Below are positions 38,701 to 57,025 of a DNA stretch of 64,000 bases, piece by piece. Numbering within the stretch: position 1 is the stretch's first letter; every line of letters begins with the position of its first letter. The notes under the pieces are model-generated. The model did not search any database, was not told where the DNA came from, and worked only from the letters and a program-made list of their open reading frames with translations. The DNA is taken from positions 15,252,001 through 15,316,000 of the forward strand of contig OX597817.1 of the NCBI GenBank assembly GCA_951406725.2, written 5' to 3'. A program made the position numbers and the translations under genes. The DNA is from Octopus vulgaris (Eukaryota).

Positions 38701-41700
38701 CCATTCTAGCCTGAAAAGTAGATGTAAAATGGTGATGGTATATCATTATCATCATCCTTATGATGTCTGCTTTTCCATGCTTGCATGGTTAGGTGAAATT
38801 TGTTGAGGCAGATTTTCTATGGCTGGATGCCTCTCCTGTCACTAAGCCTCATATATTGGATCATGCTCACCTTCAACAAAATACACTCTAACTTTGCCCT
38901 TCTGCACTGCCAGCCATTACTCTCTCTCTCTCTCTCTCCTCTAGGCCATTTCTATTACTAAGCCTCATATATTGGATCATGCTCACCTTCAACAAAATAC
39001 ACTCTAACTTTGCCCTTCTGCACTGCCAGCCATTACTCTCTCTCTCTCTCTCTCTCTCCTCTAGGCCATTTCTATTACTACTCATCACCTACTCTTGCTT
39101 TTATCACATCATCTACCCTTTGTCTATCTCTGCTATTGCCAGTGCCAGTGACCCCCCACACCAAATAACTGCTTTTTCTAACATACTCGTTTCTTTTTGG
39201 ACCTTCTAATGCTACCTTTCTCTCTCCTACCCACCAATTCCTATGCCACCTGAGCAAATGTACATACCCTAGATTACTGGGTATTCTCTACACTTGCACT
39301 CTTGTCCCCTCACTCAGTCAGCTATTTCTGGTCTCCCCAATGTCATTAATCTCTCCCTTATTCCTCTCCTTGGTCTACACATCTTATGTTACTGAGTATT
39401 CTCTACTGTTATTATGTACACTCCTGTGCTGGTACCATGATGGAACTAACATTCCCCCATCATACTCACTCTACAATGATTGGTGAGATAACTTCCCTAT
39501 TACAAAACAGTTGGCAAAATGGGCATAGAAAGCATGGAGTTGTGAAGTTGCCTTAGTCCTGTCTTGTCAAAAGCCATTCAACTTCTGTGGTGTTGGTGCC
39601 ACAAAAAAATGCACTCAATAAATTATGTAAAGTAGTTGGTGATAGGAAGGGATGTGGCCACAGAAACCATGCCAAATGGCATTACAGGCACAAGTCTGTG
39701 GGAGAAGTGGCACCTCATAAAAAATAATTCAGATATGATAACCTATCCAATCCATTCTAATCTGAAAAGTTGACATAAAATGGTGATGGTATATCATTAT
39801 CATCATCCTTTTGATGTCAACTTTTCCATGCTTGCATGAGTCAGATGAAATTTGTTGAGGCAGATTTTCTATGGCAGGATGCCTCTCCTGTCACTAAGCC
39901 TCATCTGTTTCCAAGTAAAGTAATATTTACCCATGGCCAGACAGGTGTTTCACGGAAGACTGAAAACGAACAACATTGTTTTTATGAAGGAGATGCTTGT
40001 TTACAATCATCATGTATTCTCAAACATAAGCACACACACACACATACGACAGGCTTCTTTCAGTTTCTGCCTACCAAATCCACTCACAAGGCTTTGAACA
40101 GCCCAGGTCTATAATAGAAGAGCATCGGTTGTCAAGCAATGCTAGAAGGACAAACACACACACGCATATATACGATAGGCTTCTTTCAGTTTCCGTCTAC
40201 CAAATCCACTCACAAGGCATTGGTCGGCCCAGGGCTATAGCAGAAGACACTTGCCCAAGATGCCATGCAGTGGGACTGAACCCAGAACCATGTGGTTGGT
40301 TAGCAAGCTACTTACCACACAGCCACTCCTATATGTATGTATGCATGTATGGTATGTAAGTAAGTGTGGTGTGTGTGTGTGTATGTGTGTGTGTGTATAT
40401 GTATATATATATATATATATATATATATATATATATATATATACAAAGTAAGATTGGGGTTATGGGTGTAACCCACTATGGGATAGTATTTATCCAATAT
40501 ACTGTTGGTAAAGTACCTAGATTCTTAATACATAAATGTTTTTAATTGCAATGCAATTAACTCACTTAATGTATTAAACAGGTGAAGGTAAGGAAATATT
40601 TTTACTGTAAATTTATAATACAAATAAGAAAATGGAGAAACAAGTTTAGTTTGTTCATCAACTTTCAGATATTAGAATTTTGGATTATTTATTCAACAAA
40701 AATTCTAATATCCGAAAGTTGATGAACAAACTAAACTTGTTTCTCCATTTTCTTATTTGTATTATATATATATATATATATATATATATATATATATATA
40801 CACAACGACCTGGAACCCACAAGTGTGAACAAGAGAGACAGAGCAAGGCAGAAACAAGGAAAATGCCACTTATATTTGAACACTATACAAATATTCCTTT
40901 AAAAAAACATTTCTTTTAATTTTTCTAAATTTAATTATTTAATCGTTACAGTTGAAAAGGTCCCAAAATGACTGAAACCAGTACTGAAATGTTCTTTATA
41001 AAATTATTTTAGCATTTTCTATTTTGACTTGTTTTTTCATATATATCAACTTGTGTGTTCCTTTTCATCCTTATACATATATATATATATATATGTGTAT
41101 ATATTTACTTAAAATCAGTAACAGAATTGCTAATCTTCATGCAATGATCATGAAGGGCAACAATTTGAATACACTAATTAATTTTAGAAGTCTGTAAATA
41201 TTGGCATAATGACTCTTCCTAGACACAACAGAAGTTTGTAGAGTTATTGTTATTTTTATATTCTGATTATGTGACAAATATTTGATACATACTGAATTGA
41301 TAGCTGGGTTTCTACCCTACTTTGTTGCTTAATAATTTTTATCAAAACCATTAAAAACTTTTCGAACATCTTGTATACAGTAGATAAATAATTGTGTCAT
41401 ATTAAATGACATAAACACTATTTACTGAAACTAGATATATTTCAACTAATTTTGAATTCTTAATTTTTTCCTTCTATTCTACACCAATGTGAAGTCACAT
41501 TACTGTTTAGGACAACATAGTGGTAGCTACATAACTATGTTGGGTTCAGTGGGCATCTCTTTGGTCAAATTCTTATGATGCATTACCATGAGAAGCTTCA
41601 TCACAATTCTACACATTGAATTCTTACCTATATAAAACACCTTCATTGTGATGTTGGTTAGAAAGCCAAAGGTATGCTGTCATTTGTCCAAGTTGAAAAC

Positions 41701-44700
41701 TCAGACAGATGGAGGAGGAAGGTATCAGGTTTCCCCCGTTCTAGATTATATTTTAATTTAGACTGGAGAAGAATAACATACCTACAACTAAGTTTCTTGA
41801 GTGTTGTGCTGTCTATGCTAATACACTATAACAACCTCAAATATATTAAATATATTAAACAAATACAAATGACAAACACTATTTTCATAGATCAATTTTA
41901 ATTAAACCCCTTGGTCTACAAGGTCATTTAAGATTTGTATTATTTAATTAGTATGATAGGAACACATTAAATCAGAAGCACTCATTTCTAGAAAGTTTTT
42001 AAAAGAAAGGGAATAAAGTTTTATTAGTCGTTTTACTCTTTTACTTGTTTCAGCCATTTGACTGCGGCCATGCTAGAGCACTGCCTTTAGTCGAGCAAAT
42101 CGACCCCAGGACTTATTCTTTGTAAGCCTAGTACTTATTCTATCAGTCTCTTTTGCCGAACCGCTAAGTGACGGGGACGTAAACACACCAGCATCGGTTG
42201 TCAAGCAATGCTAGGGGGACAAACACAGACACACAAACACACCACACACACATACATATACATATATACGACAGGCTTCTTTCAGTTTCCGTCTACCAAA
42301 TCCACTCACAAGGCATTGGTCGGCCTGGGGCTATAGCAGAAGACACTTGCCCAAGGTGCCACGCAGTGGGACTGAACCTGGGACCATGTGGTTGGTTAGC
42401 AAGCTACTTACCACACAGCCACTCCTACTTGCATATAGCTATGATTAATATAGGTTTCAGTTTCAATTTACACTTTCTCAGTTTCATTTAGAGTTTACAT
42501 TTTCATGAAATACAACCATTTGTTTTTAGCTTAAAATTTTGATTCTTAACAGCAATAACACTCCAATTATAACTAAAAATTTCTGATGTATTAACCTACA
42601 ATTAAACATTCACCACAACAAATATTAGGTTAGTATTTTCTCTAGTTTACTAATTAACTAATAACATCTTGATTAATTTTATATATATGTGTGTGTGTGG
42701 AGGTGCAATGGCCCAGTGGTTAGGGCAGCGAACTCACAGTCATAGATAGGATTGCGCTTTCGATTCCCAGATCAAGCATTGTGGGTGTTTATTGAGTGAA
42801 AACACCTAAAGCACCACGTGGCTCTGGCAGTGTGTGGTGGTGAACCCTGCTGTATTCTTCCACCACAATCTTCTCTCACTCTTTCTTTCTGTTTCTGCTG
42901 TACCTGTATTTCAAACGGCCAGCCCTGTCACACTCTGTGTCATGCTGAATCTCCCTGAGAACTACGTTAAAGGTACATGTGTCTGTGGAGTGCTCAGCCA
43001 CTTGCATGTTAATTTCATGAGCAGGCTGTTCCACTGATCGAACCAACTGGAACCCTTGTCATCATAACTGACAGAGTGCCATGATATATAAACACACACA
43101 CACACACACACACACATATATATATGTGACCTTGCAAAATGTGACCTCGTGTGTACCGTTGGCGATTTTTTTCCCTCTGTCTTCCCTTCTCTGGATCTTT
43201 CCTTCTCCTATGTTTCCAACGAAGAGCTCTGCTCGAAACGTTAAACCCTCCTTCTTTCCTGAGCGTCCAATAATACTATATTTGTTCCACATCCTCGCGT
43301 TGTTGTGTTTTTTTGTGCTTTCTTGTTTGGATTAACTATATATATATATATATATATATATATATATAGACAAAAACTTGTTGATGCAGACTTTCTACAG
43401 CTGGATGCACATCCTGCATGCAACCCATACCTGTTTTACAGGTAAGGTATTTTCATTTAACTGGCCCTTACACATTGAAAGAGATGAAAACACTGAAATT
43501 ATGGGTGTTTTGCTTTTTGGAGAATGTAAACAAAGACGCTGTTTTTTGCTCAGGTAGTGTTAATGAGAACCTATATAGAACAACATTCATGTGTAACAAG
43601 CTATCAAGAACATTTAACATTTGTTTCCATATTGGCATGAGCTGGATGGTCTCACAGGTCAACATACTCACACACATACATGTAACACCATAAATACTGT
43701 TCTGTAGCACACACATGCATACACACTTCTGTTTGATGCTTAACCACATTTTCTCCTTAGTTCATTGCTGAATTATAAAATTCCTGCTGTACAGTATACA
43801 TTTATCACTGATATTCTTACTTGTATTAAATAATTCATATTTAGAAATTACCATTCATATATATATATATATATATATATAGTTAATCCACACAAGAAAA
43901 CACAGAAAAAAACAACACAGCAAGGCGAGGACGTGGAACAGTTAAAGTATTATTTGACGCTCAAGAAAGAAGGGAAGGAGGGTTTAACGTTTCGAGCGGA
44001 GCTCTTCGTCGGGAACAAAGGAGAAGGAAAGATCCCAAGAAGGGAAGACAGAGGAAAAAAATTTTTTTTTTTTGCTGGTGGTGCTCAAGAGATCACACAC
44101 ATATATATATATATATATATACACATATATTCTGAAATCAGAACGCCATGTTGGATCGTTAGCCCCTACACGCATTTTTTTCTCTCCTTGTTTCTTTTCT
44201 GTGTATCTTTCTGTCGAAGAGTGTAGGCTCGAAACGTAAAAGACTTGTTTTATTTCTATTCCTGAGCGTTATACTAATACATCTGTTTGTTTGTACTCCA
44301 CCTGCCTTCGTCTTTTGTTTATTTTCGTAAACCTGCCTTCGTCTTTTGTTTATTTTCGTAAACCTTCCCGTTATATATATACATACTTAATTCTGTTATA
44401 ACATCAAGTTCTTAGTTAAAAATAAATTCCTAAACATGACAAGTTTCTCATTAAGAATACTATATTACATATATTGGCGTCCAACATTTTGATTCGAAGT
44501 CTGTTTTTATAAATCATTCATCTACATACAACCTTACCATAAACCACTATGATTGCTTTGCCAAGTATAGTGAGTTGATAAAACTTCAGTTAACATAGAT
44601 TATTCATGCAATTAGTGAACAAAAACCTCTGCATCATCTATTTCACCCCAAAATTTCAATTAGCTGATATTACTGGAGTTATCAGGCTCACTTGTTGTTT

Positions 44701-56787: not shown

Positions 56788-56929
56788 CTTTATTTAAAAC
56801 AGCAGAAAATTCAACAAAACCTGTTACTCTGAGTTTCCCGTTGCCGTTCAGCAAAAAACTGTCCGATGAACGGCAACGGGAAACTCAGAGTAACAGGTTT
56901 TGTTGAATTTTCTGCTGCTTTAAATAAAG
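56788..56929. repeat. Near-perfect inverted repeat (arms about 63 bp) in a (TA)n-flanked element
   Basis: ctttatttaaaacagcag...gccgttca / tgaacggc...ctgctgctttaaataaag. Confidence 0.95.
56859..56896 (+). ncRNA. Minimal hammerhead-like motif
   Basis: CUGU / CCGAUGA / A-CG-gcaa-CG-G / GAAA / CUC-a-GAG / UA / ACAG. Confidence 0.6.
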
Positions 56930-57025
56930 CATATTACTCTACCACTGGTATTTGAGTACTCTTCTTTCCACCTTGTTTCACATTTATGTGTTTACTCCGG
57001 TATATATATATATATATATATATAT

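What the first reader, a model, noticed from the sequence alone, without database searches (positions are those of the whole stretch)
40402..57024. A population of small hammerhead-ribozyme-carrying elements parked in (TA)n microsatellites (Penelope-like/retrozyme-like system)
Seen: at least six unrelated-looking 200-500 bp inserts sit between (TA)n runs (40444-40766, 40801-41075, 43128-43336, 43881-44372, 48460-48792, 56788-57000). Six motifs within them fold by eye into type I hammerheads: stem I / C-U-G-A-N-G-A-like box / stem II / GAAA / tiny, often palindromic stem III (ACGU, ACUCAGAGU, ACCAGU) / GUH site / stem I'. Established: Penelope-like elements carry minimal type I hammerheads with palindromic stem III in their pseudo-LTRs, often cleave as dimers, and frequently end in inverted truncated pLTRs; non-autonomous retrozymes use similar motifs. 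Inference: several distinct cephalopod PLE/retrozyme families target (TA)n and leave self-cleaving RNA cassettes in introns of an RNA-binding-protein gene. None has coding capacity here.
Basis: partly seen in the sequence, partly recalled or inferred. Interest (0 to 1): 0.85.

Follow-up and report, generated by a model that had tools for sequence, protein, structure and literature searches.

The report
Penelope retrotransposon ends carrying hammerheads
The short inserts in these TA repeats are the end pieces of seven ordinary Penelope-like jumping-gene families, six of them holding a predicted self-cutting hammerhead motif as such elements are known to do; the one fresh point is that many short copies start at a fixed place, likely the element's own transcription start.

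Summary
Observation confirmed; interpretation mostly right but ordinary. I traced each to longer genomic copies with a C-terminal GIY-YIG endonuclease, and an RT where the copy is long enough. Four are Neptune/Nematis-type, three Hydra-type Penelope-like elements (PLEs); several have pLTR-ORF-pLTR or tandem form. They are PLE pseudo-LTR ends, not retrozymes: short tandem units are nearly absent. Six hammerhead-like motifs are present, with non-canonical cores (U4C, A6U, U3-A8) and copy-specific damage. Cleavage is untested, Rfam finds none, and whole-window counts do not beat shuffles. (TA)n targeting holds: 84 of 88 3' ends versus 2-7% background. Hammerheads in pLTRs, inverted partners, tails, (TA)n bias and an octopus Hydra element are all in print; this scan noted hammerhead-PLE pairs in at least 30 other genomes. 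Fresh details: 5' ends of short copies pile up just upstream of the hammerhead, likely run-off to the transcription start; one family has a 100-114 nt stem-loop II; one has a likely -1 frameshifted ORF1.

The parts
40444..40766 (-). F1: 3' end of a Hydra-type PLE, direct copy with a long tail plus inverted partner (arms 40608-40681 / 40699-40772). Too short to include the family's hammerhead, which lies about 150-250 nt further upstream in longer copies.
40801..41075 (+). F2: pLTR end of a Neptune/Nematis-type PLE with 784-aa RT+GIY-YIG frames in 4.4-kb tandem arrays
40946..40989 (+). F2 hammerhead-like motif, U3-A8 core variant; stem III palindrome broken in this copy
43128..43336 (+). F3: short pLTR copy of a Neptune/Nematis-type PLE
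43212..43246 (+). F3 hammerhead-like motif, family core with C at position 4; this copy also has A for G5
43882..44090 (-). F4a: short pLTR copy, sister family of F3
43982..44016 (-). F4a hammerhead-like motif, C at position 4; stem I mismatch in this copy
44130..44372 (+). F4b: pLTR end of a Neptune/Nematis-type PLE
44206..44243 (+). F4b hammerhead-like motif, U at position 6
48463..48792 (.). F5: head-to-head pair of Hydra-type PLE ends (arms 48464-48537 / 48553-48626); tail on the plus-strand copy, whose last ~110 nt do not match the family tail
48492..48554 (-). F5 hammerhead-like motif with long stem II and palindromic stem III, C at position 4
56788..57000 (+). F6: Hydra-type PLE end with inverted partner (arms 56783-56850 / 56867-56934) and about 65-nt tail
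56859..56896 (+). F6 hammerhead-like motif, 2-3 bp stem II with GCAA loop, palindromic stem III
40396..40443 (.). (TA)n target run; further runs at 40763-40800, 43337-43368, 43857-43881, 48421-48462, 48793-48843, 57001-57025

Best explanation
These inserts are short terminal (pseudo-LTR) pieces of seven endonuclease-bearing Penelope-like retrotransposon families that sit in (TA)n runs and were likely copied there by the elements' own RT and GIY-YIG protein. Shown: each insert continues, in longer copies elsewhere in the genome, into a PLE ORF; the hammerhead-like motif lies between the ORF's stop and the element's 3' end; in tandem junctions the 3' end runs straight into the next ORF with no TA, so the TA is target, not tail. 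Inferred from PMC11167929 and PMC2377424: the protein nicks AT-rich DNA and starts reverse transcription at one of two internal sites downstream of the hammerhead (giving ends with or without the tail); transcription starts inside the pLTR, so the start sites occur twice in the RNA. Starting in the 3' copy gives long, variably truncated insertions; starting in the 5' copy would run off at the transcript's 5' end and give the common 150-250 nt cassette with a fixed left edge (my inference, about 50%). The hammerheads are passengers of the pLTR; most short copies are likely inert, and any cleavage would likely need a dimer or protein help.
For: ORF links: F2 end follows the EN in 30 of 30 EN-selected loci, with 784-aa frames scoring RVT_1 and GIY-YIG in arrays of about 4.4 kb; F4b-like end in 29 of 30 EN-selected loci at 81-95% identity; F5 in 2 loci; F6 in 3 loci, one with a 727-aa ORF in tandem; F4a in 2 loci, one pLTR-ORF-pLTR; F3 in 1 locus, pLTR-ORF-pLTR; F1 in 3 loci. 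Clade motifs: CX4CxxC linker, CCHH, DKG, GxKF in the F2-F4 group; RWK, DKT, CxCX5C and no CCHH in F6, CxCX5C in F5 and F1 (criteria from section 11 of PMC8557442). (TA)4 within 22 nt of the 3' end: 28 of 29, 29 of 30, 27 of 29 copies, against 412 of 6030 flank positions and 56 of 2556 window positions. Two 3' end positions per family, for example +57/+121 in F6 and +73/+107 in F2. Inverted partner in 20 of 30 F6 copies chosen by a tail pattern only. 5' pile-up: F4a 22 of 30 at -113 to -95 from GAAA, 1 longer; F3 27 of 30 stop within 9 nt of the probe; F6 15 of 30 at -45 to -18, 5 longer; F3 exact 22-mer counts 7871, 1872, 79, 25 going upstream.
Against: No cleavage, transcript end or circular RNA was measured. 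Rfam and whole-window shuffles give no support for the hammerheads. Within one family (F1, 20 aligned copies) no two-sided compensatory change is visible (read by eye), and those copies were picked by patterns that include stem II. F3 rests on a single ORF-linked locus. The drop in F3 counts continues past the edge (79 to 25 over 38 nt), and exact-match counts depend on CpG decay and subfamily variants, so the edge is less sharp than the first ratio suggests. In F6 many left edges sit at a short palindrome where inverted and direct copies join, which microhomology alone could explain. Neptune versus Nematis was not resolved by a tree.
Confidence: 0.93

Rival explanations
1. The short units are non-autonomous elements in their own right (retrozyme- or SINE-like), transcribed from short master copies and moved in trans by PLE proteins; the fixed left edge is the master's boundary.
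For: Short copies greatly outnumber long ones and have a fixed edge. The preprint 10.64898/2026.07.22.740005 derives animal retrozymes from pLTRs (abstract, introduction and part of methods read). pLTR cis sequences can act in trans (passage, PMC3846280).
Against: No short tandem arrays: 2 of 190 loci have a second same-strand copy within 600 nt, neither abutting. Short and long copies share the same sequence through the pLTR. The left edge is 20-110 nt upstream of GAAA and is not the cleavage site, so units are not cut-to-cut monomers.
Confidence: 0.2
2. The short copies are plain early 5' truncations; the pile-up comes from RT stalling at structure, or from microhomology with the target or the inverted partner, not from a transcription start.
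For: Many copies end 3' of the pile-up too (10 of 30 in F6, 7 of 30 in F4a). F6 junctions centre on a palindrome. F3/F4a edges begin with bases that can pair with TA/TG repeats.
Against: The edge lies upstream of the hammerhead helices, not at their 3' base where RT would meet them first. It recurs in three tested families of two clades. F3 and F4a have no inverted partner (0 of 30 each).
Confidence: 0.35
3. The hairpin inserts (F1, F5, F6) are MITE-like DNA elements and the hammerhead matches are chance.
For: Long terminal-looking inverted repeats; no Rfam hit; window-level counts equal shuffles.
Against: Hairpin junctions differ from copy to copy and only one arm has the tail; all three families join RT/GIY-YIG-type ORFs.
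Confidence: 0.02

Closest known systems
Minimal type I hammerheads in PLE pseudo-LTRs (Cervera & de la Pena 2014, PMC4209133; parts 1-2 of 4 read)
   Same: Short stem I, extra base after A9, palindromic or absent stem III, U3-A8 variant, most motifs single and tied to truncated PLEs, some pairs on opposite strands 100-700 bp apart.
   Different: Family-wide C at position 4 (F3, F4a, F5, part of F6) and U at position 6 (F4b) are not named in the parts I read; F1's stem-loop II is 100-114 nt against 7-8 bp helices there.
Hydra clade of C-terminal EN+ PLEs, including Hydra-1_Obim from Octopus bimaculoides (Craig et al. 2021, PMC8557442; sections 3 and 11, passages, supplement rows)
   Same: F6 has RWK, DKT, CxCX5C linker, no CCHH, CxxC and CxH around the conserved E and N, a hammerhead, and (TA)n targets; F5 and F1 show the linker and EN motifs.
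   Different: F6 unit is about 3.35 kb (paper: generally under 3 kb). I did not compare sequences with Hydra-1_Obim, so one of these may be its orthologue.
Neptune (or Nematis) clade EN+ PLEs
   Same: CX2-5CxxC linker, CCHH endonuclease, DKG, GxKF, tandem pLTR structure, microsatellite bias.
   Different: F2 has a separate 411-aa ORF1 overlapping the RT frame at a U_UUU_UUA heptamer; clade not fixed by a tree.
Non-LTR retrozymes of animals (PMC7229834, listing only; bioRxiv 10.64898/2026.07.22.740005, first fifth read)
   Same: Short non-coding units with a type I hammerhead, related to pLTRs.
   Different: Retrozymes are tandem arrays; these are dispersed single or head-to-head pieces of ORF-bearing families.

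Membership tests
EN+ Penelope-like elements | RT with C-terminal GIY-YIG endonuclease upstream of the terminal repeat | tested here: met
   RT and EN: F2 (37), F6, F4a, F3 (77), F4b. EN only seen: F5, F1.
EN+ Penelope-like elements | Tandem or partial-tandem copies forming pLTRs | tested here: met
   F2, F6, F4a, F3 (77); not examined for F1, F5
EN+ Penelope-like elements | Inverted 5'-truncated partner and optional 3' tail | tested here: met
   partners common in F1, F5, F6, rare in F2 (3 of 25), absent in F3, F4a, F4b samples
Hydra clade | RWK and DKT motifs, no GxKF at the N terminus | tested here: met
   F6 ORF; this region was not recovered for F5 or F1
Hydra clade | CxCX5C linker, no CCHH, CxxC and CxH near the EN end | tested here: met
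   F5, F1 (sequences in 29, 66); F6 copy in L270, while the L271 copy has the second C changed
Hydra clade | Placement in the clade by RT phylogeny | not tested
Neptune clade | CX2-5CxxC linker plus CCHH endonuclease | tested here: met
   F2, F3, F4a, F4b; shared with Nematis
Neptune clade | Placement by RT phylogeny (versus Nematis) | not tested
Type I hammerhead ribozyme | Core boxes CUGANGA (or U3-A8) and GAAA, UH site | tested here: inconclusive
   Met in F1, F2 and about half of F6; one family-wide change in F3, F4a, F5 (position 4) and F4b (position 6); window F3 copy also lacks G5
Type I hammerhead ribozyme | Stems I-III able to pair, stem III palindromic | tested here: met
   majority forms in all seven families; stem I only 2-3 bp in F1; stem sequences differ wholly between families, no within-family covariation shown
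Type I hammerhead ribozyme | Self-cleavage | not testable with these tools
   needs an in vitro assay
Non-LTR retrozyme | Tandem units each with a hammerhead, no ORF-bearing parent | tested here: not met
   2 of 190 loci with a nearby same-strand copy (105); ORF-bearing parents found for all seven
Non-LTR retrozyme | Circular or unit-length RNA | not testable with these tools
   only assembled contigs were offered

The most novel reading that the evidence does not exclude
PLE reverse transcriptase often starts in the 5' pLTR of its own transcript and runs off at the transcription start, so every active family mass-produces a fixed-length, promoter- and hammerhead-bearing cassette: a built-in route from autonomous PLE to retrozyme-like seeds, readable here in thousands of copies from two clades. 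The same genome holds a Hydra-type family whose hammerhead has a canonical core split by a 100-114 nt stem-loop II, which standard descriptors would miss.
Probability: 0.45. Interest if true: 0.5.

Novelty: new member of a known kind. Interest (0 to 1): 0.27.

Why it matters
The core finding adds families to a known picture and matters little by itself. Its use is as material: young, high-copy PLE families of two clades in one genome, with intact frames, let one test open points of PLE biology, namely what the pLTR hammerhead does, why (TA)n is targeted and how solo pLTRs arise. If the run-off reading holds, genomic copies alone would map PLE promoters, and it would offer a mechanism for the proposed descent of animal retrozymes from pLTRs. 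The long stem-loop II case suggests that some PLEs scored as lacking a hammerhead were missed by short-spacer descriptors.

Tried and rejected
Rfam scan: no hammerhead or twister, only microsatellite and hairpin matches to miRNA models below gathering score. Whole-window descriptor not above shuffles. A loose genome-wide hammerhead pattern matched about as often as its reversed control (1.06 million against 0.70 million) and was not used as a count. One search was aimed at the wrong half of F3 and fetched no loci. RNA: no RNA holder listed on record; contigs of four runs guessed to be RNA cover both F2 ORFs, but contigs cannot show starts, ends, strand or level, so transcript starts, cleavage products and circles stay open. 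Intron structure of the host gene over 38-58 kb stays open. First guess that F5, F6 and F1 were Nematis was dropped after reading the Hydra criteria. First guess that F3/F4a had no parent was dropped. A twister-like RNA in the F1 tail was considered and not supported. Regex tallies for F4b, F5 and F6 caught unrelated sequence, so I give their counts without denominators. Lunse et al. 2017 on PLE hammerhead variants is not held, so whether C4 and U6 cores are already described and tested there is unknown to me. Searches for print: 'Penelope-like + hammerhead + octopus' gave one work; 'Penelope, Neptune, ORF1, frameshift, coiled-coil' and 'Penelope-like, pLTR, solo, truncated, transcription start' showed no paper stating the run-off origin or a frameshifted Neptune ORF1 in the passages I read; the 2026 octopus repeat annotation PMC13282606 counts active Penelope families and has no word 'ribozyme' or 'hammerhead' in its main text. 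Figures and unseen supplements (Craig file S2, Fig. 1) may bear on these points.
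Full report
Observation. There are seven, since 43881-44372 is two elements; I call them F1 (40444-40766), F2 (40801-41075), F3 (43128-43336), F4a (43882-44090), F4b (44130-44372), F5 (48463-48792) and F6 (56788-57000). F3 and F4a are 86% identical over 182 nt. F1, F5 and F6 contain 68-74 nt inverted arms. 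All are dispersed repeats: each DNA search filled its 40 scored places, a 29-mer of the F6 tail has 4,885 exact matches and a 22-mer of F3 has 7,871. Six hammerhead-like motifs are present. On the window alone they are weak: Rfam finds none, a descriptor gives 4 hits against 0-4 in 10 shuffles, and per insert 3 of 7 pass a post-hoc descriptor at one core mismatch, where 3 to 9 of 400 shuffles of those inserts pass; one more passes at two mismatches.

What they are. Following copies upstream links every insert to a PLE ORF. F2: longer copies run into a GIY-YIG domain; all 30 loci fetched with that domain carry the F2 end behind it; arrays of about 4.4 kb hold a 784-aa frame with RVT_1 (E 3.5e-8) and GIY-YIG (E 3.8e-4, just under the cut-off), with the hammerhead just ahead of the next unit's ORF. 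F4b: 29 of 30 EN-selected loci carry an F4b-like end. F5: an EN frame ends about 200 nt upstream in two loci. F6: three loci, one a tandem with a 727-aa ORF. F4a: two loci, one pLTR-ORF-pLTR. F3: one locus, pLTR-ORF-pLTR. F1: one direct and two inverted links to the same EN. By the motifs given in Craig et al. 2021 (PMC8557442, section 11), F6 is Hydra-type (RWK, DKT, CxCX5C, no CCHH) and F5 and F1 share its linker and EN motifs; F2, F3, F4a and F4b have the CX4CxxC linker and CCHH of Neptune or Nematis. No tree was built.

Targeting and ends. A (TA)4 run follows the 3' end in 28 of 29 F6, 29 of 30 F4a and 27 of 29 F3 copies (two loci without a recognisable end were left out), against 6.8% of flank and 2.2% of window positions. 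At tandem junctions the end runs into the next ORF without TA, so the repeat is the target. Families show two 3' end positions, the tail signature that Frangieh et al. 2024 tie to two internal RT start sites (PMC11167929, parts 1-2 of 4 read). Inverted partners occur in 20 of 30 F6 copies chosen by the tail alone, in 0 of 30 F3 and 0 of 30 F4a; the 25 of 25 in F5 and 21 of 25 in F1 are biased by hairpin queries. A second same-strand copy within 600 nt occurs in 2 of 190 loci, so these are not retrozyme arrays.

The hammerheads. Family forms: F2 has the U3-A8 core in 34 of 35 matches and a palindromic six-base stem III; F3/F4a have C at position 4 (58 of 81 one form, 10 of 81 also lacking G5, as does the window's F3 copy); F4b has U at position 6; F5 has C4 and a long stem II; F6 has both canonical (24) and C4 (33) cores with a 2-3 bp stem II. 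Stem sequences differ wholly between families while the layout is kept, which fits the minimal PLE hammerhead of Cervera and de la Pena (PMC4209133), who report low activity and only as dimers. That C4 and U6 lower activity is recalled, from no call. F1's window copy has no motif, but longer copies have a canonical core whose boxes are 100-114 nt apart in 28 distinct matches, closed by a 10-bp stem II; one copy folds with z = -5.0. Stem I there is only 2-3 bp, and 20 aligned copies show no two-sided change by eye. Craig et al. searched with spacers of 7-17 nt and noted half-cores 35-50 nt apart.

A pile-up of left edges. Among 30 F4a copies picked by their 3' half, 22 begin at -113 to -95 from GAAA, 7 are shorter and 1 is longer. 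Among 30 F3 copies holding a probe at the edge, 27 stop within 9 nt of it and 3 (one the reference itself) go on. Among 30 consecutive F6 tail matches, 15 begin at -45 to -18, 10 are shorter and 5 longer. Genome counts for F3 22-mers fall 4-fold over 130 nt inside, 24-fold over the next 50 nt, then 3-fold over 38 nt; the last step and CpG content temper the contrast. In D. virilis Penelope the transcript starts inside the pLTR, 46 nt ahead of a 75-nt intron (passages, PMC2377424) whose end meets the hammerhead, that is about 120 nt upstream. Since RT starts internally downstream of the hammerhead and 5' truncation of the template shortens the product in vitro, a start in the 5' pLTR would run off at the transcription start. 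I rate this about even against stalling or microhomology and against short master copies. Solo pLTRs are known and were put down to recombination or deletion (passage, PMC3846280).

Mechanism. Shown: PLE parentage, pLTR position, TA targets, tails, inverted partners, edge clustering. Inferred: nicking of AT-rich DNA and target-primed, internally started reverse transcription; run-off; weak dimer- or protein-assisted cleavage in the parent RNA; inertness of most short copies. RNA evidence was not obtainable beyond contigs of runs guessed to be RNA.

Comparison and verdict. Hammerheads in pLTRs, dimer-type stem III, inverted partners, tails and (TA)n bias are published, and an octopus Hydra element with (TA)n preference is listed in the Craig supplement. 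Active Penelope families are counted in a 2026 octopus annotation that does not mention ribozymes in its main text (passages). This scan holds 415 notes with both words in at least 30 genomes and none in this genome. The finding is a new member set of a known kind; interest 0.27, carried by the edge pile-up, the long stem-loop II and the F2 ORF1.

Noticed in passing
L168 6503-7735 and 4212-6563 (minus); also L169-L171: The F2 family has a 411-aa ORF1 without Pfam match overlapping the RT frame; an in-frame U_UUU_UUA heptamer is present in 5 of 5 copies examined and the conserved GxKF motif lies ahead of the RT frame's first AUG, which suggests -1 frameshifting. Contigs from four runs cross the junction without a joint. 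The F4b group instead shows open frames over 1,000 aa.
   Followed up: partly
L345 1828-1979 and 27 other matches: Hydra-type F1 hammerhead with canonical core and a 100-114 nt stem-loop II that holds an inner hairpin.
   Followed up: partly
window 2466-2714 and about 26970-27400, minus strand: SUZ exon and two R3H-region exons of an R3HDM/ARPP21-like gene (name recalled); upstream exons not located.
   Followed up: partly
window 48844-49084 and 22150-22330: Two more repeats with PLE-end traits: one between TA runs with relatives in other loci, one a head-to-head inverted pair.
   Followed up: no
window 40444-40610: The long F1 tail holds a row of short hairpins; role unknown, no Rfam match.
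   Followed up: no
loci of F1, F5, F6 versus F2, F3, F4a, F4b: Head-to-head partners are common in the Hydra-type families and rare in the Neptune-type ones sampled, hinting at different second-strand handling.
   Followed up: partly
G000:C1, first 700 kb: Other repeated hammerhead-like motifs with canonical CUGAUGA cores appear in the listing, so more PLE families exist than the seven here.
   Followed up: no
L168, L173, L234, L270: Different PLE families are stacked end to end in the same TA runs, including inside each other's flanks.
   Followed up: no
window 6901-9500, 25024-25269, 53471-53881: Fragments of other RT-bearing elements (RVT_1 hits); a SINE-like repeat occurs at least 18 times in the window.
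   Followed up: no
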